Of a stretch of 64,000 bases of DNA, positions 6,982-48,798 are shown piece by piece (positions within the stretch are counted from its first letter, which is position 1; every line of letters starts with the position of its first letter). Source of the stretch: a virus (Duplodnaviria; Caudoviricetes). The stretch covers positions 1-64,000 of the IMG/VR virus record IMGVR_UViG_2700988807_000001; one strand, 5' to 3'. Below the pieces are notes generated by a model that did not search any database, was not told the DNA's origin, and saw only the letters and a list, made by a program, of their open reading frames with translations. The translations under genes were made by a program, and so were the position numbers.

Positions 6982-7018
6982 TACTGCTCGTTCCCCCACA
7001 CTATACTAGGAGACAAAG

Positions 7019-7321: not shown

Positions 7322-7337
7322 ACGAAAGATCAGTGCC

Positions 7338-14574: not shown

Positions 14575-14588
14575 GGGGTGGGTGAATC

Positions 14589-15254: not shown

Positions 15255-15258
15255 GGAG

Positions 15259-17147: not shown

Positions 17148-17203
17148 GTCTAGGCGGAACAACAAGAGCAGCGCCGGCAGAGATTTCCCCGAGGAGGTGA
17201 AAC

Positions 17204-18199: not shown

Positions 18200-18200
18200 G

Positions 18201-19283: not shown

Positions 19284-19396
19284 AGTATCTATTGAAGGTT
19301 CTCGACTTCTTGATCGGGAATCGCCTTGATCGACCGGAGCTTCGAGAGCTTCATCGTCAGCACCAGATCAACGCTCGTCAAAATGGGAGTGAATAA
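19280..19396 (+). CDS. Small hypothetical protein (38 aa)
   Basis: GTG overlaps the previous stop and TAA overlaps the next ATG (VKYLLKVLDFLIGNRLDRPELRELHRQHQINARQNGSE). Confidence 0.35.
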   Translation: MKYLLKVLDFLIGNRLDRPELRELHRQHQINARQNGSE

Positions 19397-19935
19397 TGGA
19401 TGATGTTGACGACTTCCTTGCCCACTACGGTGTCAAGGGAATGAAGTGGGGGCAACGTAAGAATAGTCTCCCTGGAGTCTCAGCCAAGACGAATCGCGAT
19501 GCTCGAAAAGACGCGGAAGAGTTTGCCCGAGCAAAGATGTTCTACGGGACAGGCGCCGGTAATCGACGGAAGCTCATTAAGAGTACCGTCGAAGCTAAGT
19601 CGAAGGACCCCGCATACAAGTCTGCTTTCGACCATCATCTCGCCAACCAGGACATGGGGAAGCACGCGTCAAAGGCAAAGTCTGAACGTCGTCGTAAGGA
19701 TGTCGGTGGAGGTGCGGCCAAGACGGCTCGCGGTGTTCATCGTCAGCTGACTGGCGGATTCGGAAGCGTTTCTTTGGCTTCGGCAGTGCTTGCCGGTGCC
19801 TACGTCGGAGCCCGTAAAACCGGCGTCGATCAAGTCATCATGAACGCTGCAAAGCAAAGACTCGGTGACGTGAAAAGCAAGCAGACCGACAAGAAGAACG
19901 TCAACGAGTGGATGAAGAAGAACGGTTTCCTCTGA
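19396..19935 (+). CDS. HYG-leader family protein 7
   Basis: MDDVDDFLAHYGVKGMKWGQRK; basic helical body. Confidence 0.8.
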   Translation: MDDVDDFLAHYGVKGMKWGQRKNSLPGVSAKTNRDARKDAEEFARAKMFYGTGAGNRRKLIKSTVEAKSKDPAYKSAFDHHLANQDMGKHASKAKSERRRKDVGGGAAKTARGVHRQLTGGFGSVSLASAVLAGAYVGARKTGVDQVIMNAAKQRLGDVKSKQTDKKNVNEWMKKNGFL

Positions 19936-38900: not shown

Positions 38901-38943
38901 TCGCAAAAATTACACACCCTATAATGAGACCCCTATGAAAGGA
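38901..38943 (+). promoter_or_regulatory. Cassette promoter repeat copy 1 (TCGCA-N14-TATAAT-GAGACCCCTAYGAAAGGA)
   Basis: Perfect -10 TATAAT plus RBS module; one of 14 copies. Confidence 0.85.
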
Positions 38944-38949
38944 ACTGTA

Positions 38950-39249
38950 ATGTTCAACTCCAAGCCCTCCACCAGCAAGTCTGGCCTCGAAGACGCTATC
39001 AACAACCTTCTCTCTGAGATGGCCGGTTATGACGCGCACTCCGAAGCTTACGCCCAGATGGCGGACCAGCTTGTCAAGCTCTACGAACTGAAGGAAGTCG
39101 ACCACAAGGCCGAATCCGGAAAGCGCGTAAGTGCTGACACGCTGGCCATCGTCGGCGGCAACATCTTCGGAATCGCCATGATCGTCCTCTATGAGCAGAG
39201 GGGCGTTCTGACGTCCAAGGCCCTGCCTTTGCTGATGAAGCTGAAGTAA
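38950..39249 (+). CDS. Small hypothetical protein with C-terminal TM helix
   Basis: ATG just after the repeat RBS. Confidence 0.7.
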   Translation: MFNSKPSTSKSGLEDAINNLLSEMAGYDAHSEAYAQMADQLVKLYELKEVDHKAESGKRVSADTLAIVGGNIFGIAMIVLYEQRGVLTSKALPLLMKLK

Positions 39250-39273
39250 CATACACCCACACAGGTGCCCCCG

Positions 39274-39327
39274 ACTGAGGAGGCTTGTAAGGACGAGATT
39301 TATATCCTTGCAAGCCTTCTCAGTTTT
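39274..39327 (+). terminator. Intrinsic terminator-like hairpin
   Basis: ACTGAGGAGGCTTGTAAGGA / TCCTTGCAAGCCTTCTCAGT stem plus T-run. Confidence 0.7.
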
Positions 39328-39395
39328 CGTCGCATCAAAAACACGCCTTCTCAATTTTTCCCGGGGAGGACTTTTGGCTCAAAGTCTTCGAAGGG

Positions 39396-39438
39396 TCGCA
39401 TGTAAAACACACTATATAATGAGACCCCTACGAAAGGA
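39396..39438 (+). promoter_or_regulatory. Cassette promoter repeat copy 2
   Basis: TCGCATGTAAAACACACTATATAATGAGACCCCTACGAAAGGA. Confidence 0.85.
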
Positions 39439-39444
39439 ACCGAG

Positions 39445-39636
39445 ATGAAGAACTCCCCGCTCAAGGCTATCAAGAAGATCCACGCCCGACTGACCAAGAC
39501 TCAGAAGGAACGCGACCGCGACTTCCTCCAGGAATACATGAAGAACAATCCTGGATGGACGACGACTACGCAGTTCCAGAAAGATTACGAGGCCGCGTTC
39601 GGCTGCAACCCTCTTGACCAGCAGCGCAAGTCCTGA
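39445..39636 (+). CDS. Small hypothetical protein
   Basis: 63 aa behind the repeat RBS. Confidence 0.7.
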   Translation: MKNSPLKAIKKIHARLTKTQKERDRDFLQEYMKNNPGWTTTTQFQKDYEAAFGCNPLDQQRKS

Positions 39637-39658
39637 TCTACAAACCTAAGTACGATCC

Positions 39659-39699
39659 AAAACCACAAGTCCAATCTATACACGGACTTTTGGTTTTTT
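39659..39699 (+). terminator. Intrinsic terminator-like hairpin (ACAC-loop family)
   Basis: AAAACCACAAGTCC-AATCTATACAC-GGACTTTTGGTTTTTT. Confidence 0.75.
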
Positions 39700-39715
39700 C
39701 TATCTGGAGGTCGAC

Positions 39716-39931
39716 GTGACAAACAAGTTATTCGTCCTGACCAACACGCTGGTGGCGTACACGACTTCAGACTACGCTTTCGGAATTGTGGTCGGTGTCA
39801 CGGCAACACATATTTACTTCAAGACCAAGTACAAAGCGATGCTGACCCCTCACGACATGGACCGTCTCAAGATGGGGCTCCCTGTTCAACTCGACACCAG
39901 TCAAGGTCCGCTCTACATCAAGGGTATCTGA
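39716..39931 (+). CDS. Small membrane protein
   Basis: GGAGG RBS, GTG; TM segment; C-terminus resembles 40891 and 41948. Confidence 0.6.
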   Translation: MTNKLFVLTNTLVAYTTSDYAFGIVVGVTATHIYFKTKYKAMLTPHDMDRLKMGLPVQLDTSQGPLYIKGI

Positions 39932-39975
39932 TCGCACATATTACACGCCCTATAATGAAACCCTCGACGAAAGGA
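39932..39975 (+). promoter_or_regulatory. Cassette promoter repeat copy 3 (variant)
   Basis: TCGCACATATTACACGCCCTATAATGAAACCCTCGACGAAAGGA. Confidence 0.8.
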
Positions 39976-39981
39976 TCAGTA

Positions 39982-40149
39982 ATGAACACCAAGATTGCTG
40001 CCGTCAAGAACCATGTCAAGAAGCACCGAGCGATCTACGCTGCTGCAGGAACGCTAATCGTCTGCACGGCCGCGCATATTCGCATCGTGAGCAACTTGAA
40101 CAGGTTCCTTGACGCGCACGACCTGATGGATCAGTACTACATTGAATGA
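39982..40149 (+). CDS. Small membrane-associated protein
   Basis: MNTKIAAVKNHVKKH plus hydrophobic helix. Confidence 0.7.
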   Translation: MNTKIAAVKNHVKKHRAIYAAAGTLIVCTAAHIRIVSNLNRFLDAHDLMDQYYIE

Positions 40150-40158
40150 GAGTTCAAG

Positions 40159-40192
40159 AGCTGAGATGTCCTAACACGACATTTCAGTTTTT
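40159..40192 (+). terminator. Terminator-like hairpin (ACAC-loop family)
   Basis: AGCTGAGATGTC-CTAACAC-GACATTTCAGTTTTT. Confidence 0.7.
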
Positions 40193-40204
40193 CTCGTACG
40201 GGAA

Positions 40205-40247
40205 TCGCACAAAATACACACTATATAATGAGACCCCTACGAAAGGA
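40205..40247 (+). promoter_or_regulatory. Cassette promoter repeat copy 4
   Basis: TCGCACAAAATACACACTATATAATGAGACCCCTACGAAAGGA. Confidence 0.85.
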
Positions 40248-40254
40248 AACTGTC

Positions 40255-40404
40255 ATGAAGATCGCCAACATCAAGAACCACTTCCAGGCTCATGCCATCG
40301 AGTACGGTGTCGCAGGTACGTTCGCAACGTACATTGTCGGCAACATGCTCCTCAGCAAGACCCTGGAGAAGGTGATTACCAAGGCCATCTCCTCCGAGAA
40401 CTGA
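40255..40404 (+). CDS. Small membrane-associated protein (49 aa, not in ORF track)
   Basis: MKIANIKNHFQAHAIEYGVAGTFATYIVGNMLLSKTLEKVITKAISSEN behind the repeat RBS. Confidence 0.7.
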   Translation: MKIANIKNHFQAHAIEYGVAGTFATYIVGNMLLSKTLEKVITKAISSEN

Positions 40405-40421
40405 CCAATCAACAAGGAACC

Positions 40422-40461
40422 AAAACTGACTTGCCAATTTATACACGGCATTTCAGTTTTT
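40422..40461 (+). terminator. Terminator-like hairpin (ACAC-loop family)
   Basis: AAAACTGACTTGCC-AATTTATACAC-GGCATTTCAGTTTTT. Confidence 0.7.
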
Positions 40462-40469
40462 CGTACGGA

Positions 40470-40512
40470 TCGCATATTTAACACACCTTATAATGAGACC
40501 CCTACGAAAGGA
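40470..40512 (+). promoter_or_regulatory. Cassette promoter repeat copy 5
   Basis: TCGCATATTTAACACACCTTATAATGAGACCCCTACGAAAGGA. Confidence 0.85.
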
Positions 40513-40521
40513 ACACATCTA

Positions 40522-40794
40522 ATGAATAAGATTCACCTCGCCCTCGCAGCAGGTACGTTCGTCGTCGCTGGGATCGCCGCTGTCAACTACGCCCATATTT
40601 CTCGCGAAGAGAAAGCCAAGCGTGCCGAGATCAAGAAGAACCAAGAACTCGACATTCAGGCCATCAATCTCGCTGCTGAGCGAATGAAGGAAAAGTTGAA
40701 CGACGGCGTTCACTTCGAATCGATCTACGACCTGTTCCGCGATTTGGGTGACGAGATCAACTTCCAGAAGATCGCAGTTCGAATCGAAGACTGA
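40522..40794 (+). CDS. Small protein with N-terminal TM helix
   Basis: 90 aa behind the repeat RBS. Confidence 0.72.
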   Translation: MNKIHLALAAGTFVVAGIAAVNYAHISREEKAKRAEIKKNQELDIQAINLAAERMKEKLNDGVHFESIYDLFRDLGDEINFQKIAVRIED

Positions 40795-40799
40795 CTCAG

Positions 40800-40836
40800 A
40801 AACCTAAACCCACACGCAACACGGGTTTTAGGTTTT
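40800..40836 (+). terminator. Terminator-like hairpin (ACAC-loop family)
   Basis: AAACCTAAACCC-ACACGCAACAC-GGGTTTTAGGTTTT. Confidence 0.7.
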
Positions 40837-40841
40837 GTCTT

Positions 40842-40884
40842 TCGCAGGAAAAACACACATTATAATGAGACCCCTACGAAAGGA
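40842..40884 (+). promoter_or_regulatory. Cassette promoter repeat copy 6
   Basis: TCGCAGGAAAAACACACATTATAATGAGACCCCTACGAAAGGA. Confidence 0.85.
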
Positions 40885-40890
40885 CATATC

Positions 40891-41121
40891 ATGAAGAACA
40901 AGCTTGCTTCCGTCAAGAAGTTCGTGAAAGACAACGAAATCGTTATCGCTACAACAGCAATCCTCGCAGCAACTGCTGGCGCCACCATTGCCCTGACTCA
41001 CTACGCAGTCAAGATGGAAAACGCCGCGGCTGACTCCGAAGCATTGTTCTTGAAGGAGCACGGTTCGCAGGTCTACCGCGAAACCAACCACGGAACCATC
41101 TACTTCAGCATGAACCCCTAA
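40891..41121 (+). CDS. Small membrane-associated protein
   Basis: MKNKLASVKKFVKDN plus hydrophobic helix. Confidence 0.72.
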   Translation: MKNKLASVKKFVKDNEIVIATTAILAATAGATIALTHYAVKMENAAADSEALFLKEHGSQVYRETNHGTIYFSMNP

Positions 41122-41131
41122 GTAAGAACCG

Positions 41132-41167
41132 AAACCACGAGCCCAAGCAACACGGGCTTTTGGTTTT
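41132..41167 (+). terminator. Terminator-like hairpin (ACAC-loop family)
   Basis: AAACCACGAGCCC-AAGCAACAC-GGGCTTTTGGTTTT. Confidence 0.7.
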
Positions 41168-41172
41168 ACCAA

Positions 41173-41199
41173 TCGCAGAAAAAACACGCGCTATAATGA
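41173..41199 (+). promoter_or_regulatory. Cassette promoter repeat copy 7 (no GACCCCTA module; drives tRNA-like RNA)
   Basis: TCGCAGAAAAAACACGCGCTATAATGA. Confidence 0.8.
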
Positions 41200-41201
41200 A
41201 A

Positions 41202-41280
41202 GGAAAGACTCGTAGCTCAGTTGGAATGAGCGTCGTCAGCAATGACGAAGGTCGCAGGTTCGAGTCCTGCCGAGCTTTCC
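41202..41280 (+). ncRNA. tRNA-like RNA without a canonical anticodon loop
   Basis: D-arm TAGCTCAGTTGGAATGAGC, T-arm GCAGG-TTCGAGT-CCTGC, acceptor GGAAAG(A)CTCG/CGAGCTTTCC; anticodon arm TCGTCA-GCAA-TGACGA; no encoded CCA. Confidence 0.72.
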
Positions 41281-41295
41281 TTCTTATTTTTGCCT

Positions 41296-41322
41296 TCGCA
41301 GAAAAAACACACACTATAATGA
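41296..41322 (+). promoter_or_regulatory. Cassette promoter repeat copy 8 (no RBS module)
   Basis: TCGCAGAAAAAACACACACTATAATGA. Confidence 0.8.
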
Positions 41323-41451
41323 GAAGGAAACTTCTCCAATAAGAGAAAGGTGAGACGCGAATGCGTAGGTGAAACTCCTACCCACCTGGCGCAAACAACA
41401 ATAATCACGAGTTTTCAGCGGACCGTGAGCCCATGTTCTCTTATAGTTTTT
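41321..41451 (+). ncRNA. Putative structured small RNA
   Basis: GAGAAG-GAAA-CTTCTC hairpin; ATAAGAGAA/TTCTCTTAT closing stem; internal AGGTG/CACCT, GTAGG/CCTAC and TCACG/CGTGA helices; T-run end; no ORF with an RBS. Confidence 0.55.
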
Positions 41452-41550
41452 GCTTTATTTTACCTGAATTCGTCAGAGTGACGTTTTAGCCCATACCCCA
41501 GGTAGGGTCAGAACGTGGCTCTGGCCACTTCATGTATTTTTACGTAGGAA

Positions 41551-41593
41551 TCGCATGTAAAACACACCATATAATGAGACCCCTACGAAAGGA
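41551..41593 (+). promoter_or_regulatory. Cassette promoter repeat copy 9
   Basis: TCGCATGTAAAACACACCATATAATGAGACCCCTACGAAAGGA (near-identical to copy 2). Confidence 0.85.
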
Positions 41594-41598
41594 TTACC

Positions 41599-41850
41599 AT
41601 GATCAACGAGCTCAACGCCATCAAGCAGATCGTTGTCAACAACCCTACCGTCGTCAAGGCTACCCTCGCTGCAGCCGGACTGGCTGTCGGAACCACTGTC
41701 GCATACCGGATCAAGAAGAAAGAAGCTCTTCTTGCTGGAGGCGCTCAGTGGATGTCCGTCGAACAGTACGAGCAGCACGTAGCCGACAACGAAGGTGTTG
41801 ACCGCAACGACCTCCTTGAGGACGAGTACGTCGTCATCGACCCTCAGTAA
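41599..41850 (+). CDS. Small membrane-associated protein
   Basis: 83 aa; hydrophobic helix and acidic tail. Confidence 0.72.
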   Translation: MINELNAIKQIVVNNPTVVKATLAAAGLAVGTTVAYRIKKKEALLAGGAQWMSVEQYEQHVADNEGVDRNDLLEDEYVVIDPQ

Positions 41851-41855
41851 GAACC

Positions 41856-41895
41856 AAAAACCATAAGTCCAATCTATACACGGACTTTTGGTTTT
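41856..41895 (+). terminator. Terminator-like hairpin, near-identical to 39659-39699
   Basis: AAAAACCATAAGTCC-AATCTATACAC-GGACTTTTGGTTTT. Confidence 0.75.
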
Positions 41896-41901
41896 ACCCT
41901 T

Positions 41902-41944
41902 TCGCATATTTTACACACCCTATAATGAGACCCCTATGAAAGGA
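41902..41944 (+). promoter_or_regulatory. Cassette promoter repeat copy 10
   Basis: TCGCATATTTTACACACCCTATAATGAGACCCCTATGAAAGGA. Confidence 0.85.
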
Positions 41945-41947
41945 CCT

Positions 41948-42214
41948 ATGATGGAAATCAAGAACGAGATCAACGCTAAGATCGATTCCACCAAGAAGTT
42001 CGTAAAGAAGCACAAGACCTTCCTCGCATATACTGCGGGCGTTGTTGTCGGAGCTACTGGAGTGGCTGTTGCATTGAGCAATCAGTCAGCCCTGATAGTA
42101 ACCCGAGAACAAATCCGCCACATGCAGAGCGGTGGCGTGGTTGCATACGAATCTCCTGTTGGAACGATCCTTACTTGGATCAAGCCCGACAACATCAACA
42201 TCCCCACAACGTAA
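41948..42214 (+). CDS. Small membrane-associated protein
   Basis: KIDSTKKFVKKHK plus hydrophobic helix. Confidence 0.72.
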   Translation: MMEIKNEINAKIDSTKKFVKKHKTFLAYTAGVVVGATGVAVALSNQSALIVTREQIRHMQSGGVVAYESPVGTILTWIKPDNINIPTT

Positions 42215-42220
42215 GTCAAC

Positions 42221-42253
42221 GACTGAAGTTCCCTAACAAGGAATTTCAGTTTT
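42221..42253 (+). terminator. Terminator-like hairpin
   Basis: GACTGAAGTTCC-CTAACAA-GGAATTTCAGTTTT. Confidence 0.7.
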
Positions 42254-42302
42254 CCTTTTAAGGACAAAGGTTTACAACCTCGCATATTTCAAAGGAGAAC
42301 CA

Positions 42303-42539
42303 ATGTCCAAAGTCCAACTACTCAGACTGATCGGATCTCTGTTCATCATCGAGTCCGCAATCCTCGTCAAGATAGCTTGGGATCTTCACGACCGACAGCA
42401 AGATTTCGAAACTTCGGATGCGCTTCTGAATTACTGTCTCGACAAAGTCAATGAGGAAGCCGGGTTCGACGAGTTTGACATCGTTGCTCTGAACACGATC
42501 TTGGAGACAAACGGATCCATATTTCACAAAGGTCTCTAA
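42303..42539 (+). CDS. Small protein with N-terminal TM helix
   Basis: AAGGAG RBS; 78 aa. Confidence 0.65.
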   Translation: MSKVQLLRLIGSLFIIESAILVKIAWDLHDRQQDFETSDALLNYCLDKVNEEAGFDEFDIVALNTILETNGSIFHKGL

Positions 42540-42550
42540 CGTAACTTAAA

Positions 42551-42593
42551 TCGCAGAAAAAACACACCCTATAATGAGACCCCTATGAGAGGA
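42551..42593 (+). promoter_or_regulatory. Cassette promoter repeat copy 11
   Basis: TCGCAGAAAAAACACACCCTATAATGAGACCCCTATGAGAGGA. Confidence 0.85.
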
Positions 42594-42599
42594 TACGCC

Positions 42600-42692
42600 A
42601 TGACCGCTATTGTCGCTCCCGTGCTCATCACCACCTTCCTGGTTGTGCTGTACATGATCGCGCCGAAGCTTGCTGGTTACATCACCAAGTAG
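42600..42692 (+). CDS. 30-aa hydrophobic peptide (not in ORF track)
   Basis: MTAIVAPVLITTFLVVLYMIAPKLAGYITK, alone between a promoter repeat and a terminator. Confidence 0.65.
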   Translation: MTAIVAPVLITTFLVVLYMIAPKLAGYITK

Positions 42693-42696
42693 ATCG

Positions 42697-42741
42697 AAAA
42701 GCTTGAAGCTCCCTAACACGGAGTTTCAGCTTTCTGTTTTT
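42697..42741 (+). terminator. Terminator-like hairpin (ACAC-loop family)
   Basis: AAAAGCTTGAAGCTCC-CTAACAC-GGAGTTTCAGCTTTCTGTTTTT. Confidence 0.7.
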
Positions 42742-42788
42742 CCTCTCTCCCACACACCTATATTTTGATCACCTATGAAGGGACCACC

Positions 42789-43004
42789 ATGAAGAAGCTG
42801 GGCATCGTTGCCGTCTCCACCACCGTAGGATTCGCCGCGGGAGTGTCGAGCGTGGGCTACATCATCACGAACAAGAAGATCATGAAGAAGGTCTTGATGG
42901 CATATTTCAAGACGATCGACTTCTCAATGACCGACGAACAGACTCGAGTTCTCGGAGAGCTAACTCAGCAGATGAAGTTGGCAAAGACCAAGAAGAAGCC
43001 CTAA
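42789..43004 (+). CDS. Small membrane-associated protein
   Basis: GAAGGGA RBS; MKKLGIVAVSTTVGFAAGV. Confidence 0.65.
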   Translation: MKKLGIVAVSTTVGFAAGVSSVGYIITNKKIMKKVLMAYFKTIDFSMTDEQTRVLGELTQQMKLAKTKKKP

Positions 43005-43049
43005 CCTCTCGTCTCCACGCGCCACACTCATATTTGAAAGGCTATACCT

Positions 43050-43229
43050 ATGCGCAAGGCAACGTTCGTCCTGTCCGCTCTCAGCTTCGTCACCTCCGTC
43101 GCGACCCTCGGGGTTCTCGCTTACGGAGCAAAGAAGGTCCACAACGATATTCAGGGGATTCGAGAAAAGGTCAACACCTCCATCGGCCAGTTCAAGAAGA
43201 CCCTCGTCAACTTCGACTTCTCCGTCTAA
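43050..43229 (+). CDS. Small membrane-associated protein (59 aa, not in ORF track)
   Basis: GAAAGG RBS; MRKATFVLSALSFVTSVATLGVLAYGAKKV... Confidence 0.65.
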   Translation: MRKATFVLSALSFVTSVATLGVLAYGAKKVHNDIQGIREKVNTSIGQFKKTLVNFDFSV

Positions 43230-43257
43230 CTCACCGATCCAACGAAAGGGTAAGAAC

Positions 43258-43539
43258 ATGAGCGCGTACAACTCCTTCAACGACTTCCTCGCCAACAACC
43301 CGCAGTGGATCATATTCATCAGCATCGCCCTTCCGTGGGTCGGTCTCATGATGCTGGTGATGTTCTTCGAGAAGGGACGGAAGAAGCACAAGGCGGTTCG
43401 TAAGGCTTACAAGGCCGGCGAACTCCAGAAGCGCCCGAGCCGTCGCACCAACCTCACAGTCGTCGAGCCCGTGTCGAATCGTAAGGACGTTCCGTCCGAC
43501 TACTTCGATCGTGTCAACGAATTCCGAGCAAGCCTCTAA
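43258..43539 (+). CDS. Small membrane protein
   Basis: One TM helix, basic tail. Confidence 0.65.
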   Translation: MSAYNSFNDFLANNPQWIIFISIALPWVGLMMLVMFFEKGRKKHKAVRKAYKAGELQKRPSRRTNLTVVEPVSNRKDVPSDYFDRVNEFRASL

Positions 43540-43557
43540 GAAAGGTTTTCGCCTTCA

Positions 43558-43782
43558 ATGCTTTCGTCTACCATCAGCGTTCTCTGGGATATTCTTCTCG
43601 TCTTCTTGCTGATCATCGGTATCATCATCGTGATCGGACTTGTCACTGGCTGGATGGCTGTCGTGTGGACCTACGTCACGCGATTCGTCAATGCCTATCG
43701 TCGGGCCTCGCGTGAGCTAGAAGCTGCCGAGGAGCTCGAAAGGGTCGATGACGACGATCCCTACGGCAAGCTTGTCGACTGA
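43558..43782 (+). CDS. Small membrane protein
   Basis: Long hydrophobic N-terminus. Confidence 0.65.
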   Translation: MLSSTISVLWDILLVFLLIIGIIIVIGLVTGWMAVVWTYVTRFVNAYRRASRELEAAEELERVDDDDPYGKLVD

Positions 43783-43822
43783 CCAAATCTATCAACCATA
43801 TCTGAAACAACTCTGGAGAATC

Positions 43823-44617
43823 ATGAACCTCTCTGTCCTGGCGAAGAACCTCGAAAAGTTCGCGGTCGCCAATTCCCCCGCAATCCTGACTGGCATCGCT
43901 GTCACCGGCACGGTCGCAACGGCAATCCTGGCCGGCAAGGCATCGTTCAAGGCCGCGAAGATCATCGCCGGCGAAGAGGAGAAGATCAAGGACCGTATGG
44001 TCGAGGTCTCCGACGACGAGGAGACTGACCAAGAGCTCGATGTGAAGGCAAAGACCCTTCTCGTCTGGAAGCTCTATATTCCAGCAGCAAGCACCTGCGT
44101 CACGACCGTCATGGCCATGATCGCTGCCAACCAGATCGGCACCCGACGCACCGCGGCAATGGCAGCGGCATATTCTCTCTCGGAGAAGGCGTTCGGTGAG
44201 TACCGTGAGAAGATCGTCGAGAAGATGGGTCCTGCGAAGGAAGCCAAGGCTCGCGACGAACTTGCTCAGGAGCGCGTCTCTCGCACTCCGATGCCCTCCA
44301 GCCAGCTCATCATCACGGGTAACGAGGTTTGCTGCTTCGATCAGCACAGCGGTCGTTATTTCCTGAGCACGGTGGAAGATCTGAAGCAGGCTCAGAACAA
44401 CACGAACTACCGGATCATCAACGACGGTTACCAGAGCCTGAACGATTTCTACGATCGCATCGGCCTCGATATCGTCCCGACCGGCGAAGAGCTCGGATGG
44501 AACACCGACACGAAGCTGGAGCTGTACTTCTCGACCGTCATGTCTCCTGATCAGCGCCCCTGCGTCGCCATCGAGTTCGCCAAGGGTCCCATCGCAAACT
44601 ACTACAAGGGTCACTGA
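43823..44617 (+). CDS. Conserved phage protein (DUF6353-like), paralog of 50002
   Basis: NSPAILTG..V.G.V.T..LA.KA, KLYIPA, RR.AA.AAAY...EKAF.EYR.K, SLNDFYD..G...G..LGW. Confidence 0.7.
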   Translation: MNLSVLAKNLEKFAVANSPAILTGIAVTGTVATAILAGKASFKAAKIIAGEEEKIKDRMVEVSDDEETDQELDVKAKTLLVWKLYIPAASTCVTTVMAMIAANQIGTRRTAAMAAAYSLSEKAFGEYREKIVEKMGPAKEAKARDELAQERVSRTPMPSSQLIITGNEVCCFDQHSGRYFLSTVEDLKQAQNNTNYRIINDGYQSLNDFYDRIGLDIVPTGEELGWNTDTKLELYFSTVMSPDQRPCVAIEFAKGPIANYYKGH

Positions 44618-44649
44618 CCACCAACTACCATATTTGGGGAGGAACCACC

Positions 44650-44892
44650 ATGCACCACAAACAAGATCGTGAATTCACCTATGAGACGGGCACGGACGAG
44701 CCCCTCAATCCGGACCCGGCCATCGCCGCAAGTATGACGGAGCAGGGCGTCAGCAAGTGCGAGAACAGTTGCAAGCTCTACAAGCATCCGCGAGCAGACA
44801 TCATCGTCCTCGCACACAACTCGTCGTACGGATGCAAGCGCACCAAGTCCCATATCGTGAGTGAGTTCACGGAGGCGAACATCAATGCCTGA
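44650..44892 (+). CDS. Hypothetical protein
   Basis: GGAGG RBS; 80 aa; CxxxC. Confidence 0.6.
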   Translation: MHHKQDREFTYETGTDEPLNPDPAIAASMTEQGVSKCENSCKLYKHPRADIIVLAHNSSYGCKRTKSHIVSEFTEANINA

Positions 44893-45085
44893 GCGTGAGT
44901 ACTGGATGGTTCCTCTCCACGAGAGTCAGCCTGAGGACACCTACAGTCGCCTGCTTCTCAAGGTGTCGGGGCAATTCGCTGATATTCTGACGGTCGACGG
45001 CGGATACGAAAAGATCTACCTCGTCACCGAAGAGACCGCGCCGGCTCAGGACGATATTCTGAAGAGGGTGTTGGCTGATGCCTGA
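44885..45085 (+). CDS. Hypothetical protein
   Basis: ATG overlaps the previous gene; tight packing. Confidence 0.55.
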   Translation: MPEREYWMVPLHESQPEDTYSRLLLKVSGQFADILTVDGGYEKIYLVTEETAPAQDDILKRVLADA

Positions 45086-45311
45086 GCACATGACTGTCGC
45101 CCTCAAGGAGCTCTTTCCCGAGTCGTTGTGGAACGAGCTCTACCTGCGGACCGTACGACGTGAAGACGTCTACAGTTCGCACATGCTCATCACCTCGACC
45201 GGGGAAGTCAAGGAGTTGATCTCCACTCCGGGGTTCGAGGGTGTCTTCTCGCCGTTGTTGGTCAACCATAACGCAAACAATCTTCTAATGGGTATCGAAA
45301 GGGGTCTCTGA
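45078..45311 (+). CDS. Hypothetical protein
   Basis: 77 aa; overlapping start and stop. Confidence 0.55.
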   Translation: MPEHMTVALKELFPESLWNELYLRTVRREDVYSSHMLITSTGEVKELISTPGFEGVFSPLLVNHNANNLLMGIERGL

Positions 45312-45661
45312 TGTGCAATTATCCCGGTCCGATGATGGTTTCCATCGGAGACAGCGTCCCGGAAGAGACGTGGAATCGTATCAAGTTGCAGTGTGCGCTC
45401 AACTTGTACGGACGAATTGCTCCCGTCGTGACCGATGGCATTCGGAACGTCGGCGAGGTGTTTGTCAAAATGGGTGAGTCCATGAAGAACATCGACTTCA
45501 GTCACGCACAAGAGCAGATCGAGAAGGTCACACAAACACCTATTGCCGGCTTCCACTCCGTGGCCAATCCGATGCAGAAGGTCGAGTACGGCATCAAGGC
45601 GGCGTCGACGTCTCATATTCTCGAGTCCCTCGGGGTGACAAGCGACGGGCGTCATGTGTGA
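45311..45661 (+). CDS. Hypothetical protein
   Basis: 116 aa; TGATG coupling. Confidence 0.55.
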   Translation: MCNYPGPMMVSIGDSVPEETWNRIKLQCALNLYGRIAPVVTDGIRNVGEVFVKMGESMKNIDFSHAQEQIEKVTQTPIAGFHSVANPMQKVEYGIKAASTSHILESLGVTSDGRHV

Positions 45662-46070
45662 GGCGGGGACGTGCCGGCCGTGTCGGCTAGAGGATCGTTT
45701 GACCGATCGAGTCATGGGGACGACGCGAGACTACATCGAGTTCGTAAAGCTCCCGACCGTCGAACAGAACATGGCGAATCGTAAGATCCATGGACTGTCT
45801 CTTATTTCCTCGACCAACTCCAAGGTCCAGAGACAGACTCCGCCTCCCGGAAACCTCTCGTCCAAAGAGAGCATTGCGGCTCGAAAGAAGCGAGAGAACG
45901 CAAAGCGGAAGGCAAACCGAGAGCTTCGCAACGGCCGGCTATATTCTCTCGGATGCCCTGAGCATGGTACACCTTCCGGATACAAGCATTGGCACTGTCG
46001 ATGCGCACCTTGTACGGACGCGCACACCAAAGAGCGAAACGGTTCGTACCAAGGAAAGCAGGTAGGATGA
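45654..46070 (+). CDS. Zn-binding protein (HGT..GY...CRC..C motif)
   Basis: EHGTPSGYKHWHCRCAPCTDA. Confidence 0.65.
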   Translation: MCEAGTCRPCRLEDRLTDRVMGTTRDYIEFVKLPTVEQNMANRKIHGLSLISSTNSKVQRQTPPPGNLSSKESIAARKKRENAKRKANRELRNGRLYSLGCPEHGTPSGYKHWHCRCAPCTDAHTKERNGSYQGKQVG

Positions 46071-46297
46071 CCGCCCCAATCACACTCGAAGATCGAGAGC
46101 GTTGGCGAAAGAACCACACGAACAAGCTTGCCATCCGCAAGATGAATCGGAAGATGGTCAACGGACGACTCACGTCCACCATGCTCCAAGAGCATGGTAC
46201 GCCTTCCGGATACAACAATTGGTTCTGCCGATGCATCCCCTGCACCCAGGCATACAACGGTCGCAAGAAAGACAACCGCAAAAAGCGCCGTCGGTAG
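46067..46297 (+). CDS. Zn-binding protein, paralog of 45654
   Basis: EHGTPSGYNNWFCRCIPCTQA; ATGA overlap. Confidence 0.65.
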   Translation: MTAPITLEDRERWRKNHTNKLAIRKMNRKMVNGRLTSTMLQEHGTPSGYNNWFCRCIPCTQAYNGRKKDNRKKRRR

Positions 46298-46332
46298 CCC
46301 ACAAAGACTTATCTTCCCCAGAGACGTCTGCG

Positions 46333-46375
46333 TCGCAGAAAAAACACGCGCTATAATGAGACCCCTATGAAAGGA
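46333..46375 (+). promoter_or_regulatory. Cassette promoter repeat copy 12
   Basis: TCGCAGAAAAAACACGCGCTATAATGAGACCCCTATGAAAGGA. Confidence 0.85.
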
Positions 46376-46381
46376 ACAAAC

Positions 46382-46618
46382 ATGTCTGATCAGAACGAGA
46401 ACGTCGTCATCGAAGAAGATGCAATCGTCGTTCGTTTCCCCCGCTTCAAGAAGATCTTGAGGAAGATCGAAGACAACTCGGCACTCATCGCAGCTGTTAC
46501 CGCGACTGTAGTGACCTCGGTTGGAATCATCGCCCTCAAGCGACTCGACGAGAAGACGGTGGAGACGACGGAGGTTGTGGAAACAACGGTGATCGACGTC
46601 ACTCCCACTGAAGACTGA
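46382..46618 (+). CDS. Small membrane-associated protein
   Basis: Amphipathic basic helix plus TM; behind the repeat RBS. Confidence 0.7.
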   Translation: MSDQNENVVIEEDAIVVRFPRFKKILRKIEDNSALIAAVTATVVTSVGIIALKRLDEKTVETTEVVETTVIDVTPTED

Positions 46619-46637
46619 TATTCCCACACAGAGATCG

Positions 46638-46689
46638 AAAAGCGAAAGGCTTAGTAAAGAAATTTACTAGGTCTTTCTCTTTTGCTTTC
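46638..46689 (+). terminator. Terminator-like hairpin
   Basis: GAAAGGCTTAGTAAA-GAAA-TTTACTAGGTCTTTC plus T-rich tail. Confidence 0.6.
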
Positions 46690-46715
46690 ACGGACAAAGA
46701 GGATTGATTCCGCAA

Positions 46716-47210
46716 ATGGACCACAAGACGTTCAACGCATATTTGGAAGAGAAGTTCGACACAATTCGATCGACTCTCGGTCTCAAGGGTATGGAGTACG
46801 TCCCCGACGAGGGTGGCTCTCGCTTCCACAACTTCGATATTGCGGCAGCCTTCAACGACGAGTCCCCCGAGAAGGCGCTCTGGGGAATGCTCACCAAGCA
46901 TCTCGTGAGTATCGCGGACATGGTGAAGGTAGATCCGACCAAGCACGCCATGGAGGTGTGGGACGAGAAGATCGGTGACGCTCTCAACTACCTCCTCCTG
47001 CTCAACGGCATGGTGAAGGATCATCACGCCACGGCAGAGCTGGTTCGATTCCACACCGGCCTCATCAATGCCATGACTCCTCCGGACACCAACGTGACGA
47101 GCGCAGTCATTCAGAGTAACGACCACCTGTCGGGTCTGGCGAGTGGCGGAATCGAGTCAGTTCGTAAGGACGACACACATGACAGTGCTTGCTGTTCCCA
47201 GCAGCCCTGA
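46716..47210 (+). CDS. All-alpha nucleotide pyrophosphatase-like protein (MazG-like/nucleotide-modification-associated)
   Basis: K..EY......RFHNF..AA...KH...D...EKIGDALNYLLLL pattern. Confidence 0.55.
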   Translation: MDHKTFNAYLEEKFDTIRSTLGLKGMEYVPDEGGSRFHNFDIAAAFNDESPEKALWGMLTKHLVSIADMVKVDPTKHAMEVWDEKIGDALNYLLLLNGMVKDHHATAELVRFHTGLINAMTPPDTNVTSAVIQSNDHLSGLASGGIESVRKDDTHDSACCSQQP

Positions 47211-47252
47211 CCATATTCTCACCCAGCAAGAACACACAAGGAGCACAAAGTA

Positions 47253-47894
47253 ATGCTGAAGCAGACCGTCGAGTACACCGACTTCGATGACAACCGTTGC
47301 GCCGAGACGCTCTATTTCAATCTCACCAAGACCGAGCTTGCAGAGAACGCTCACCTGCAGGATCGTCTCGAGTCGATGCAGAAGATGTTTGGTGGTGAGA
47401 AGCGTCAGCTCGAGAGCGCGGAGATCAAGGAGATCCTCGAACTCGTCAAGACGATCATGCGTATTTCCTACGGTGTTCGCAGTGCCGATGGCAAGCGATT
47501 CATCAAGACGGAGGATCAGTGGGTCGAGTTCACCCAGACGGCCGTCTACGACGAGTTCCTCATCTCCATGTTCACGGATCCGGACAAGATGTTCGCGTTC
47601 ATGTACGGGATCATGCCGGCTGACATGCGCGATCAGGCAAAGGCCGAGGCCGAGCGACTTGCAGCGGAGCGTTCCATTTCTCAGGCAGCTCAGAACACTC
47701 AGGCTCCGACTCCGCCGGCTCCTCCCGCCGCTCCTGCTGCGATGACCACGGGTGTCCCTACCAACCCGCCTGTGGATATTGTGGTCAACGAGCAGCCGGC
47801 AGCCGGTCAGCCCACCCAGGAACAGATGGCTGCTTACCTGCGCGATCAGCAGGCTCGTGGCGGACTGACCCAGCCGGGCTACTTGCAGGGCTGA
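47253..47894 (+). CDS. Conserved hypothetical protein with Pro/Ala-rich tail
   Basis: AAGGAG RBS; Y.DFD.....E.LYFNL.K.EL, SYGVRS.DGKRFIK. Confidence 0.7.
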   Translation: MLKQTVEYTDFDDNRCAETLYFNLTKTELAENAHLQDRLESMQKMFGGEKRQLESAEIKEILELVKTIMRISYGVRSADGKRFIKTEDQWVEFTQTAVYDEFLISMFTDPDKMFAFMYGIMPADMRDQAKAEAERLAAERSISQAAQNTQAPTPPAPPAAPAAMTTGVPTNPPVDIVVNEQPAAGQPTQEQMAAYLRDQQARGGLTQPGYLQG

Positions 47895-48053
47895 TTCATA
47901 TTTGAGGAAGAGGGGTTTGGCAAGGGTCCTTTGTAGGGGTCTCGCCCTAGTCCGGATGCCAAACTTAAACGACAGCCGTAGTGCTGTGGGGAAGCAGCGA
48001 ATCATGCTCCCTCGACCTCACCACACACCTATATTTGAGTTGAAAGGATCGTC

Positions 48054-48440
48054 ATGCCTACCATCGATCAAGTCAAGACGCACCTCCGTGAGAACAAGAA
48101 GGTCTATATTGTCGGTGGCGCCTGCCTCGCGGTAGGTGTCCTGGCTGGAACGACTCTTCTTACCAAGGAGTCCCCTGAGATTGTGGTAAACCCCAAGATC
48201 CAGCAGATCATGAGCTGGAAGCCGACAGCAACGTTGAAGGTGCATATCGAGGCGCTTGGAGATCCAGGAAACATCATTCAGGACGTCACAACAGGAACCG
48301 TCTATGCAAGCCAGGGACAGGCGGCTCGAGCTTTGGGCGTCAATCCCGCGCGCATATCTGAGCACTTGTCTGGAAAGATTCCTAACGTGCAGGGTCACTC
48401 ATTCAAGTTCTTGGGTAAGGCTGACTCAATCGCAGGATAA
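48054..48440 (+). CDS. Membrane-anchored protein with NUMOD1-like HTH
   Basis: N-terminal hydrophobic helix; TG.VYASQGQAARALGVNPARISEHL.G HTH. Confidence 0.65.
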   Translation: MPTIDQVKTHLRENKKVYIVGGACLAVGVLAGTTLLTKESPEIVVNPKIQQIMSWKPTATLKVHIEALGDPGNIIQDVTTGTVYASQGQAARALGVNPARISEHLSGKIPNVQGHSFKFLGKADSIAG

Positions 48441-48456
48441 ACACGCCCTATAATGA
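48430..48456 (+). promoter_or_regulatory. Cassette promoter repeat copy 13 (no RBS module)
   Basis: TCGCAGGATAAACACGCCCTATAATGA. Confidence 0.8.
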
Positions 48457-48750
48457 GAAGAAACGATAAGCTTAAAACGCTAATCCTTGAATCGCCCCTT
48501 TAGGGGAGGTCATCCGTAAGCACTGTCTTTGGTTGGAAGGTAACAGCCGCTTATCGTTTTATAACCGCTTGGAACCGCCATTGGGTAGTTCTGGAGGCCT
48601 GCCATTGGGCGGACCTTCGTGGCCTACCGTTTGGGTGGACCACCAATGTTATATTCTCGATGAGAAGATAGAACCGCTTGGAACACCTTTATGAGGAGTT
48701 CTGGCAGCCACCTTTATGAGGAGACCACCAAAGTTCTATCTTCTCATATT
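48455..48750 (+). ncRNA. Putative ~295-nt multi-hairpin non-coding RNA with two homologous domains
   Basis: AAACGATAAGC/GCTTATCGTTT stem; perfect 15-bp ATGAGAAGATAGAAC/GTTCTATCTTCTCAT stem; repeated AACCGCTTGGAAC...AGTTCTGG...ACCACCAA units; no ORF of 60 aa or more. Confidence 0.65.
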
Positions 48751-48755
48751 TCGCA

Positions 48756-48798
48756 TCGCAGATAAAACACGCCCTATAATGAGACCCCTACGAAAGGA
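48756..48798 (+). promoter_or_regulatory. Cassette promoter repeat copy 14
   Basis: TCGCAGATAAAACACGCCCTATAATGAGACCCCTACGAAAGGA. Confidence 0.85.

What the first reader, a model, noticed from the sequence alone, without database searches (positions are those of the whole stretch)
41202..41280. tRNA mimic whose anticodon loop is replaced by a GNRA tetraloop
Seen: the D-arm, variable loop (AGGTC) and T-arm (GGTTCGAGTCC) are canonical. The anticodon arm is a 6-bp stem capped by GCAA instead of a 7-nt loop. The acceptor stem is extended with a bulged A and no CCA is encoded. It has a dedicated promoter copy and a T-rich 3' flank. Perfect pairing with a stable tetraloop argues against random decay. 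Inference: a non-decoding tRNA-shaped RNA, for example a decoy for anticodon nucleases, tRNA-modifying toxins or uncharged-tRNA sensors.
Basis: partly seen in the sequence, partly recalled or inferred. Interest (0 to 1): 0.78.

Follow-up and report, generated by a model that had tools for sequence, protein, structure and literature searches.

The report
Phage tRNA-shaped RNA without an anticodon
This phage and its relatives carry a small gene for an RNA folded like a transfer RNA whose anticodon loop is replaced by a short capped hairpin, so it cannot read codons and probably works by imitating the shape of a tRNA.

Summary
Window 41202-41280 (+) folds as a cloverleaf with canonical D and T arms. 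It has a 6-bp anticodon stem capped by GCAA, and a closed, extended acceptor helix with bulged A41208. It has its own promoter copy and a U-tract.

It is not a sequencing error or a decaying tRNA. Contigs from four independent metagenome runs reproduce it without indels. ReqiPoco6 has an identical 67-nt core while the flanks diverge.

I found 13 distinct variants: the window, ReqiPoco6, one metagenome contig and 10 Gordonia Kenoshavirus-type phages. The element is unannotated in all 34 Gordonia records found. All variants keep the D/T elbow, but the anticodon arm is only a 4-6 bp stub with a 4-nt loop (GCAA, GAAA, ACAA, ACUA or UUCG). All 169 stem cells pair, and 6 of 13 pairs show changes on both sides.

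So this is a conserved, separately transcribed, non-decoding tRNA mimic. Its target is unknown. A decoy for a factor that recognises tRNA shape is my leading inference; an anticodon-nuclease decoy is disfavoured.

Closest known: the tRNA-like modules of bacterial Y RNAs, and Rfam SpF41. It meets the membership criteria of neither. Expression is untested.

The parts
41131..41167 (+). Terminator-like hairpin that ends the upstream small gene (40891-41121)
   Evidence: Read from the sequence: AAACCA..AGCCC / GGGCT..TGGTTT followed by TTT. ReqiPoco6 keeps the hairpin with different letters. The simple terminator scan did not list it.
41174..41197 (+). Dedicated promoter copy (CGCAGAAAAAACACGCGC-TATAAT); -10 hexamer at 41192-41197
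   Evidence: Six copies of the long motif with up to 3 mismatches, 0 expected. Thirteen copies of the short motif, all on the + strand between 38.9 and 48.8 kb, 0.09 expected. The same motif precedes all 13 homologues. A paper on Gordonia phage Vardy describes it as a sigma-70-type TATAAT motif (PMC9671010 passages). The transcription start is not mapped.
41200..41212 (+). 5' strand of the closed, extended acceptor helix, with bulged A41208
   Evidence: Minimum-energy fold. Compared with ReqiPoco6: one compensatory A-T to G-C change and one G-C to G-T change. The helix beats composition-preserving shuffles, 0 of 1000.
41213..41232 (+). U8-A9, D arm (GCTC-AGTTGGAAT-GAGC) and G26
   Evidence: The D stem pairs in 13 of 13 variants, and pair 24-34 varies as CG/UG/UA.
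41233..41248 (+). Anticodon-arm stub: 6-bp stem TCGTCA/TGACGA capped by GCAA (41239-41242)
   Evidence: Relatives have 4-bp stubs with GCAA, GAAA, ACAA, ACUA or UUCG loops, and two stub pairs covary. Four independent metagenome contigs show no indel here.
41249..41253 (+). Variable loop AGGTC
   Evidence: It is AGAC or AAGC in the Gordonia variants.
41254..41270 (+). T arm GCAGG-TTCGAGT-CCTGC
   Evidence: Three of 5 T-stem pairs change on both sides across the 13 variants, and all cells stay paired.
41271..41282 (+). 3' strand of the closing (acceptor) helix; no CCA
41284..41291 (+). U-rich tract directly behind the closing helix; likely intrinsic terminator tail
   Evidence: A run of at least 4 T follows the helix in 12 of 13 variants; the exception is Fazel.
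41297..41451 (+). Next promoter copy plus a second structured non-coding RNA ('ncRNA2', about 41321-41451) that tends to travel with the tRNA mimic
   Evidence: Promoter. ncRNA2 is conserved in ReqiPoco6, Fazel, Hydrus, Zeph, Secretariat and Schwartz33. It lies next to the mimic in the window, Hydrus and Zeph, one gene away in ReqiPoco6, and is fused behind it without promoter or terminator in Fazel. The consensus fold has 3 covarying pairs.

Best explanation
The element is a gene for a small, stable, non-decoding tRNA mimic that belongs to a family found in actinophages. Its own promoter copy sits directly in front of it. The RNA, about 80-95 nt, closes on itself through a long purine/pyrimidine helix that takes the place of the acceptor stem. 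That helix, together with the U-tract behind it, probably also serves as the terminator.

Selection keeps what makes a tRNA L-shaped: U8, A14, G18-G19, G26, the T loop, and the D and T stems. The anticodon limb is reduced to a rigid stub with any stable 4-nt cap. The acceptor end is kept shut, with unpaired A residues.

Shown here: the fold, its conservation and covariation, the separate-cassette layout, and that it cannot decode.

Inferred: it acts in trans by occupying a host (or phage) factor that recognises tRNA by its shape, that is, by the elbow and the coaxial T/acceptor stack, and not by the anticodon or a free CCA end. Candidates are a tRNA-directed toxin or defence effector, a tRNA-modifying or processing enzyme, or RNase P. 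Its place among many small promoter-driven genes, and its patchy presence among related phages, fit an accessory host-takeover or counter-defence role.
For: Fold and tRNA-model score.

No other tRNA-model hit in the genome, so it is not part of a decoding set.

Thirteen distinct variants share the promoter and the layout of 5' strand, D arm, stub, variable loop, T arm and 3' strand. A T run follows in 12 of the 13; in Fazel the mimic runs on into ncRNA2.

On the MAFFT alignment, 169 of 169 stem cells pair, 6 of 13 pairs change on both sides, and 0 of 500 shuffles reach the covariation score. Slid controls pair only 37-50% of cells.

Stub loops are GCAA x7, GAAA x2, ACAA x2, ACUA x1 and UUCG x1. 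The stub stem is 6 bp in 2 variants and 4 bp in 11.

The closing helix beats shuffles (at most 2 of 1000) in 7 of 13 variants.

The core is 67/67 identical to ReqiPoco6, against 36/54 in the neighbouring terminator and spacer.

Four metagenome runs from four studies hold it unchanged.

Among 11 related phage records scanned with the tRNA model, it is present in 4 (one below cut-off) and absent from 6, with one spurious 18-nt hit. That is the pattern of an accessory gene.

The elbow as a recognition surface for the ribosome, RNase P, T-boxes and many proteins: abstract of PMC4810234.
Against: There is no expression evidence. No RNA run was available, so the transcription start, the 3' end and any processing are unknown.

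If transcription starts the usual 7 nt behind TATAAT, the outermost pairs of the closing helix would not be in the RNA.

No binding partner is identified, and no nearby gene with a recognisable tRNA-related domain accompanies it. The 31 predicted proteins I scanned between 38 and 64 kb have no RNA-related Pfam hit.

Rickmore and Duffington carry a deviant T loop (ATCGATA) and a weak junction-proximal helix. Their closing-helix scores are reached by 52 and 255 of 1000 shuffles, and Jodelie19's by 111 of 1000. The constraint may therefore be relaxed in some lineages.

The 13 variants are related, so cell counts overstate the number of independent events.
Confidence: 0.5

Rival explanations
1. 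Cis-acting RNA element. The tRNA shape would serve as a processing, stabilising or terminating module for neighbouring transcripts. For example, it could be a handle that RNase P or RNase Z cuts to release the adjacent ncRNA2 or mRNAs, or a nuclease-resistant terminator.
For: In Fazel the mimic is fused directly to ncRNA2 with no promoter or terminator between them. The two RNAs are adjacent, or one gene apart, in all 5 phages that have both. The closing helix plus U-tract looks like a terminator. From memory only, not from any call here: tRNA-linked small RNAs released by tRNA-processing enzymes exist in a murine herpesvirus and at the MALAT1 locus.
Against: Twelve of 13 variants are complete cassettes with their own promoter directly in front and their own U-tract. 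Most Gordonia phages that carry it (for example Kenosha) gave no ncRNA2 match, and Secretariat and Schwartz33 have ncRNA2 without the mimic. Ordinary hairpin terminators serve the neighbouring genes. An elbow conserved to the base is more than a terminator needs.
Confidence: 0.17
2. Processed, CCA-tailed tRNA-like RNA. Host RNase P/Z and the CCA-adding enzyme would trim the closing helix to a 6-7 bp acceptor stem. The product would then enter a tRNA pathway other than decoding, either charged by a synthetase that ignores the anticodon or acting as a substrate sink.
For: M. smegmatis YrlA, a tRNA-like Y RNA, is cut by RNase P and receives CCA in vivo (PMC4201824 passages). The unpaired A residues 4-5 pairs from the T stem could loosen the helix. 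Five of 13 variants happen to have CCA in the 3' strand (Kenosha, Mossy, OhMyWard, Pherobrine, Duffington; read).
Against: CCA is absent in 8 of 13 variants, including the window. The acceptor register is irregular, with a bulge or A/A mismatch at pair 4-5 and no G3:U70. There is no single-stranded 5' leader, because the helix starts right behind the promoter.
Confidence: 0.1
3. A Y-RNA-like RNA that engages the host Ro60/Rsr machinery, alone or together with ncRNA2.
For: D. radiodurans Yrn1 has the same topology: the ends form a long stem, and it has a D-like region, an 'anticodon arm' with a 6-nt loop and a T arm (PMC4201824 passages). Bacterial YrlA loci recovered by my pattern carry the same CCGC-GCAA-GCGG hairpin in front of a T arm. 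ncRNA2 contains GCGAAUGC, as does the 5' part of the YrlA consensus. Some mycobacteriophages encode Ro60 and YrlA.
Against: There is no YrlA or YrlB hit at E up to 10 on the window region, Fazel or Hydrus. The phage has no TROVE gene. TROVE was found in only 12 of 151 sampled genomes of the host's family. The arm order is that of a tRNA, not the permuted YrlA order. ncRNA2 has no 3' strand that could pair with its GCGAAUGC region as a Ro-binding stem would need. An 8-nt match can arise by chance.
Confidence: 0.06
4. A dying tRNA gene (a one-base deletion in the anticodon loop) or an assembly error.
For: The arm is exactly one base shorter than normal. The nearest BLAST relatives are ordinary phage tRNA-Asn, Trp and Phe genes.
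Against: The same length appears in ReqiPoco6 and in four independent metagenome assemblies. The core is 67/67 identical while the flanks diverge. Homologues have still shorter, perfectly paired stubs, with covariation in every stem. It has a dedicated promoter and terminator. The loop lacks U33.
Confidence: 0.03
5. A working tRNA-Ala(AGC), as ARAGORN reads it.
For: ARAGORN's call and the ReqiPoco6 record's 'tRNA-OTHER' feature.
Against: That reading needs a 3-bp D stem, no nucleotide 26, C33 instead of U33 and a 6-nt variable loop (worked out). There is an A3/C70 mismatch, no G3:U70 and no CCA. ARAGORN finds nothing in L006 or in 11 of 11 Gordonia loci that hold the homologue.
Confidence: 0.01

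Closest known systems
tRNA-like modules of bacterial Y RNAs (YrlA, Rfam RF02553; D. radiodurans Yrn1)
   Same: They are non-decoding RNAs that keep tRNA D- and T-arm features and tertiary-pair nucleotides, and they have no free acceptor end. Yrn1 has its ends in a long stem and a 6-nt 'anticodon loop'. Some are phage-encoded (passages of PMC4201824). The CCGC-GCAA-GCGG-AG + T-arm string of the Gordonia variants recurs in bacterial YrlA-type loci.
   Different: There is no YrlA or YrlB model hit. No Ro60/TROVE gene lies beside it or anywhere in the phage. The arm order is not permuted. There is no GNCGAA-type Ro-binding motif in the closing helix. The RNA is much shorter.
Rfam SpF41_sRNA (RF02435), a Streptococcus small RNA of unknown function
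   Same: The Rfam consensus printed has the same plan: a long closing helix with unpaired positions, a D-like stretch, a 5-bp hairpin with a 4-nt loop, a T arm (GGUUCGAAUCC) and a U-tract. In S. agalactiae it is reported only in strain-specific regions (passages of PMC6064168).
   Different: Scores are 25.0 and 21.2 bits for Hydrus and Fazel, against a gathering score of 52. There is no hit on the window element. The hosts are different, and SpF41's function is likewise unknown. I found no statement in the passages I read that SpF41 is tRNA-like.
Ordinary phage-encoded tRNAs, including those proposed to bypass tRNA-cleaving defences
   Same: It is phage-borne, matches the tRNA covariance model (42.1 bits), and has canonical D and T arms.
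   Different: It has no 7-nt anticodon loop, no anticodon, no 7-bp acceptor stem with discriminator and no CCA, so it cannot decode. It stands alone and not in a tRNA cluster.
Viral tRNA mimics of eukaryotic viruses (plant-virus 3' tRNA-like structures; herpesvirus tRNA-like RNAs)
   Same: A virus copies the tRNA shape, above all the elbow, to engage host tRNA-binding machinery (abstract of PMC4810234; search listing of PMC10870377). The herpesvirus example is recalled from memory.
   Different: Those are 3' ends of RNA genomes that get aminoacylated, or pol III products. This is a separate bacterial-type transcription unit in a dsDNA phage, and its acceptor end is closed.

Membership tests
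tRNA (Rfam RF00005) | Score at or above the family's gathering score | tested here: met
   42.1 bits against 29. Homologues score 39.9 (L006), 42.6 and 41.6 (Kenosha and Mossy). Rickmore scores only 20.9.
tRNA (Rfam RF00005) | 5-bp anticodon stem with a 7-nt loop carrying U33 and an anticodon | tested here: not met
   The loop is 6 nt (or a 6-bp stem plus GCAA) and has no U33. Homologues have 4-nt loops on 4-bp stems.
tRNA (Rfam RF00005) | 7-bp acceptor stem, discriminator base, and a free or addable CCA end | tested here: not met
   In the 7-bp register there is an A3/C70 mismatch. The real helix runs on for 10-12 bp with bulged A41208, and no CCA is encoded. Whether CCA is added after transcription cannot be tested here.
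tRNA (Rfam RF00005) | D and T arms with elbow nucleotides (G18 G19, T54 U55 C56, A58, U8, A14) | tested here: met
   Read (invariant columns). Stems pair in 13 of 13 variants. The tertiary fold itself was not tested.
YrlA / bacterial Y RNA (RF02553, RF02565) | Match to the family model | tested here: not met
   No YrlA or YrlB hit at E up to 10 on window 41100-41650, Fazel or Hydrus. The same search finds YrlA in bacterial loci.
YrlA / bacterial Y RNA (RF02553, RF02565) | Encoded near a Ro60 (TROVE) gene | tested here: not met
   No TROVE match in the whole 76,797-bp phage at E up to 1.
YrlA / bacterial Y RNA (RF02553, RF02565) | Binds Ro60/Rsr | not testable with these tools
   Needs co-immunoprecipitation.
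SpF41_sRNA (RF02435) | Score at or above the gathering score (52 bits) | tested here: not met
   25.0 bits (Hydrus) and 21.2 bits (Fazel). Not listed for the window at E up to 10.
GNRA tetraloop | Loop sequence G-N-R-A closed by a helix, conserved if it is functional as a contact | tested here: inconclusive
   GCAA in the window fits. Across the family 9 of 13 loops are GNRA, 1 is UUCG, and 3 are ACAA or ACUA. The loop class is therefore not conserved.
Intrinsic (factor-independent) terminator | Stable helix immediately followed by a U run | tested here: inconclusive
   The closing helix ends 1-4 nt before a T run in 12 of 13 variants. The helix is branched, the consensus scan picked only a sub-hairpin (41256-41277), and termination was not measured.
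Phage attachment site overlapping a host tRNA gene | Identity to a host tRNA gene, and an integrase in the phage | tested here: not met
   No match to the D-arm...T-arm pattern in 185,579 species genomes. No integrase or recombinase domain among the 74 window proteins scanned. Cluster DJ phage Vardy is reported to have no integrase.

The most novel reading that the evidence does not exclude
The RNA would be a new kind of phage counter-defence molecule: an 'elbow-only' tRNA decoy made early from a strong promoter. It would soak up a host immune effector or toxin that finds tRNAs by their L-shape, for example an acceptor-end nucleotidyltransferase or pyrophosphokinase toxin, or a tRNA nuclease of Actinobacteria. 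Having neither an anticodon nor an open 3' end, it would be immune to the attack itself. Its frequent neighbour ncRNA2 would be a second RNA of the same module.
Probability: 0.15. Interest if true: 0.85.

Novelty: new variant of a known kind. Interest (0 to 1): 0.62.

Why it matters
Phage tRNA genes are usually explained by codon supply or by replacing tRNAs that defences cut. Here a phage lineage keeps a tRNA that cannot decode at all, under clear purifying selection and with its own promoter. That points to a use of tRNA shape alone.

The family escapes standard annotation. ARAGORN misses 11 of 11 Gordonia copies. One genome paper reports 'no tRNAs' for a phage that carries the element.

The hosts are easy to work with: Gordonia phages of the SEA-PHAGES collection. 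Deletion, pull-down and end mapping could directly show which host factor reads the tRNA elbow during infection.

The work also links three scattered observations: the tRNA-like modules of Y RNAs, the SpF41 small RNA, and anticodon-less tRNA-like genes in bacterial tRNA clusters.

Tried and rejected
Expression: the look-up of sequencing runs listed no RNA holder for window 41000-41700. This says nothing about expression.

The original ReqiPepy6/ReqiPoco6 genome paper (Summer et al. 2011) could not be read. Neither the DOI nor PMC3020559 is held. It may already comment on the odd tRNA, and its supplements are likewise unseen.

Literature searches found no description of this family. The term sets were: tRNA-like + bacteriophage + anticodon loop + tetraloop + noncoding RNA; cluster DJ + Gordonia + promoter; tRNA-like + actinobacteriophage; phage-encoded / tRNA mimic / decoy / anticodon nuclease.

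Exact-pattern scans with the window's D and T arms found only ReqiPoco6 in IMG/VR and nothing in species genomes. The D arm alone hit three ordinary tRNAs.

A loose pattern for short-armed tRNA-likes gave 102 viral and 85 bacterial stretches. Most of those with 17-18 nt between the arms are normal tRNAs with 4-nt variable loops or unrelated oddities. I did not pursue them as one family.

Covariance model R1 (built), run over 151 sampled genomes of the host's family, gave a best hit of 44.3 bits. Family members score 61-103 bits. The 11 top loci checked are ordinary tRNAs. G071, flagged as unpublished, was not used.

Y-RNA idea: tested and not supported.

Attachment-site idea: rejected.

My first duplex-based screen for extended acceptor stems was too noisy to use.

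An earlier scan note returned by the search of earlier findings concerned an unrelated tRNA array and did not bear on this.

In run X2, a joint that skips 41199-41296 lies between two promoter copies, so it cannot be told from a repeat artefact.

Full report
**What is there.** The window is 64 kb of a 76,797-bp phage genome. Its closest public relative is Rhodococcus phage ReqiPoco6.

At 41202-41280 (+) the sequence reads as follows:
- closing helix, 5' strand: GGAAAG-[A]-CTCG
- TA
- D arm: GCTC-AGTTGGAAT-GAGC
- G
- anticodon arm: TCGTCA-GCAA-TGACGA
- variable loop: AGGTC
- T arm: GCAGG-TTCGAGT-CCTGC
- closing helix, 3' strand: CGAG-CTTTCC

The minimum-energy fold is this cloverleaf (-36.2 kcal/mol, z = -3.9, 0 of 200 shuffles as good). 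Rfam's tRNA model scores it 42.1 bits against a gathering score of 29, and aligns a 6-nt loop where 7 are expected. ARAGORN reports tRNA-Ala(agc), but only by shifting the anticodon stem one base into the D stem. That costs a D-stem pair and nucleotide 26, and puts C at position 33 (worked out). It is the only tRNA-model hit in the whole genome.

A perfect TATAAT (41192-41197) sits 4 nt upstream of the helix. It lies inside a motif that occurs 13 times on the + strand between 38.9 and 48.8 kb, where 0.09 copies are expected. A T run follows the helix.

**Not an error, not decay.** ReqiPoco6 carries the same element, annotated only as 'tRNA-OTHER'. The 67-nt core is 67/67 identical, while the terminator and spacer just upstream are 36/54 identical. 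The closing-helix strands differ, with one compensatory A-T to G-C change and one G-C to G-T change.

Contigs from four sequencing runs of four different studies cover the element with 0 gaps. None shows a listed difference inside 41202-41280 that belongs to those contigs. The indels listed in that interval come from short pieces with 7-10 differences that align only to 41211-41272, which are other organisms' ordinary tRNAs.

**A family.** One metagenome contig (L006) has the same promoter, D arm, variable loop and T arm. Its anticodon arm is CCGC-TTCG-GCGG, and its closing helix is about 16-18 bp with A/A mismatches, followed by T8. The tRNA model scores it 39.9 bits.

I used a protein encoded next to L006 to find related phages. 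I then scanned 11 whole phage records with the tRNA model.
- Hits above cut-off: ReqiPoco6, Gordonia phage Kenosha and Gordonia phage Mossy.
- Hit below cut-off: Gordonia phage Rickmore, 20.9 bits.
- No hit: Odesza, Secretariat, two Streptomyces phages and two Arthrobacter phages.
- A Curtobacterium phage gave only a spurious 18-nt hit.

BLAST with the Kenosha copy finds it in 34 Gordonia phage records, which I count as 27 named phages. Every record has 'none' as the annotated feature. In Kenosha it lies in a 218-bp gap between genes 39 and 40. ARAGORN finds no gene in 11 of 11 Gordonia loci or in L006. The genome paper for Vardy, which holds the element at 98.1% identity to Kenosha's, states that no tRNAs were identified (passages read).

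**Comparative anatomy.** I compared 13 distinct variants.
- Promoter: all have the TATAAT (once TATAGT) promoter copy directly upstream.
- Fold: all 13 minimum-energy folds contain a stub with a 4-nt loop, the T arm and a closing helix, and 12 of 13 also contain the D arm.
- Stems: on the MAFFT alignment, 169 of 169 cells in the three stems form standard pairs, 6 of 13 pairs change on both sides (20 cells), and 0 of 500 shuffles reach the observed covariation score. Sliding the 3' partners gives 37-50% pairing. The sequences are related, so these cells are not 20 independent events.
- Stub: the stem is TCGTCA/TGACGA, CCGC/GCGG or CCGT/ACGG. The loop is GCAA (7 variants), GAAA (2), ACAA (2), ACUA (1) or UUCG (1).
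- Closing helix: it scores above composition-preserving shuffles (at most 2 of 1000) in 7 of 13 variants, 26-52 of 1000 in 4, and 111 and 255 of 1000 in Jodelie19 and Duffington, where the pairs next to the junction are disrupted.
- Unpaired A residues lie 4-5 pairs from the T stem in most variants: bulged A41208 here, and A/A mismatches in L006 and the Kenosha type.
- A T run follows the helix in 12 of 13. In Fazel the RNA runs straight on into a second structured RNA.
- CCA is not conserved (5 of 13).

**What this means.** Selection acts on the parts that give a tRNA its L-shape. It also keeps the helix that seals the ends. It does not act on an anticodon loop, which is gone, nor on the class of tetraloop. 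The molecule cannot decode. Without processing it cannot be charged.

It is laid out as a self-contained cassette (promoter, RNA, U-tract) among many small promoter-driven genes between the tail genes and the replication genes. It is present in some related phages and absent in others, as accessory genes are.

My best reading is a trans-acting tRNA-shape mimic that occupies a factor recognising the elbow and the T/acceptor stack. The elbow is a known recognition surface for the ribosome, RNase P, T-boxes and many proteins (abstract of PMC4810234). Which factor it is, and whether the aim is counter-defence, remains inference.

**Open points.**
- Transcription start: the usual spacing puts it about 7 nt behind TATAAT. 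That would leave the outermost helix pairs untranscribed and move the helix away from the U-tract.
- Yet the 3' strands of both this RNA and ncRNA2 are complementary to the bases right behind TATAAT. This hints that those bases are transcribed.
- No RNA data were available.

**Comparison with known RNAs.**
- Y RNAs. Bacterial Y RNAs contain tRNA-like modules, and D. radiodurans Yrn1 has the same topology and a 6-nt 'anticodon loop'. My pattern scan of species genomes recovered YrlA-type loci in Planctomycetota, Acidobacteria and others that carry the same CCGC-GCAA-GCGG hairpin before a T arm. However, the YrlA and YrlB models do not match the phage RNAs at E up to 10. The phage has no Ro60 gene. 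Ro60 occurs in 12 of 151 sampled genomes of the host's family. The arm order is not permuted.
- SpF41. The nearest Rfam family by plan is SpF41_sRNA, which has a closing helix, a 4-nt-loop hairpin, a T arm and a U-tract. It scores 25.0 and 21.2 bits against a gathering score of 52, with no hit on the window copy.
- Host genomes. No member of the phage family was found in 151 sampled genomes of the host's family. The best hit was 44.3 bits, against 61-103 bits for members, and the top 11 loci are ordinary tRNAs.

I therefore file it as a new variant of a known kind (non-decoding tRNA mimics) and as a member of none of the named families.

**Limits.**
- I could not read the 2011 genome paper of these Rhodococcus phages.
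- The searches for earlier descriptions were word searches of open-access text.
- The comparative set comes from two phage genera plus one contig.
- No expression, processing or binding was measured.

Noticed in passing
window 41321-41451 (+); also L001 1845-1975, L226 440-561, L227 467-581: A second structured non-coding RNA ('ncRNA2') lies behind the next promoter copy. It starts with a GAGAAG-GAAA-CTTCTC hairpin and has a closing stem TAAGAGAA/TTCTCTTA followed by a T run. The closing stem is TAAGAAGC/GCTTCTTA in Fazel, a compensatory change. The consensus fold has 3 covarying pairs. No Rfam match. It lies next to the tRNA mimic in the window, Hydrus and Zeph, one gene away in ReqiPoco6, and is fused to it in Fazel. 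Secretariat and Schwartz33 have it without the mimic.
   Followed up: partly
window about 41455-41555 (+); L211 about 1400-1470: A third conserved non-coding stretch lies between ncRNA2 and the next gene's promoter: CGTCAGAGTGACG-TTTT-AGCCCATACCCCAGGTAGGGTCAGAACG. It is conserved in ReqiPoco6. A similar string lies just upstream of the mimic's promoter in Gordonia phage Rickmore.
   Followed up: no
window 38909-48781 (+): There are 13 copies of the promoter-like motif AAAACACNCNNTATAATG, all on the + strand. Most of them precede small genes with the leader GAGACCCCTACGAAAGG. The same cassette style is seen in Gordonia cluster DJ phages and in L006. The bases right behind TATAAT pair with the 3' ends of both small RNAs, so the start site may be closer to the hexamer than usual.
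   Followed up: partly
L236 286-353 (-), L267 286-352 (-), L252 284-343 (+): Bacterial MAGs (Desulfobacterales, Leptolyngbya, Bryobacterales) carry tRNA-model hits whose anticodon arm is a 4-bp stub with UUCG, GAAA or GCAA. In L236 the acceptor stem is a normal 7 bp. In L252 and L267 they lie beside ordinary tRNA genes. Anticodon-less tRNA-like genes may be more widespread than phages.
   Followed up: partly
L228, L235, L242 and other Acidobacteria loci; L255, L268, L240: A recurrent acidobacterial element and planctomycete/alphaproteobacterial YrlA loci contain GAGCG-CCGC-GCAA-GCGG-AGG + T arm. This is the same string as in the Gordonia phage mimics. L268 and L255 also hold tandem YrlA and YrlB hits.
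   Followed up: no
L016, L025, L080, L096 (IMG/VR contigs): These are tRNA-like sequences in viral contigs in which only 6 nt (CTTTAG) lie between an intact D arm and the T arm. The anticodon arm is missing altogether, and the acceptor-like flanks are complementary.
   Followed up: no
window 10645-12273 (+), 14155-19932 (+), 115-8180 (+): A 543-aa protein combines a 2H/LigT-like phosphoesterase domain with the short DUF7211 motif. Seven further consecutive proteins start with DUF7211. Five proteins at the left end start with the Mtd_N domain.
   Followed up: no
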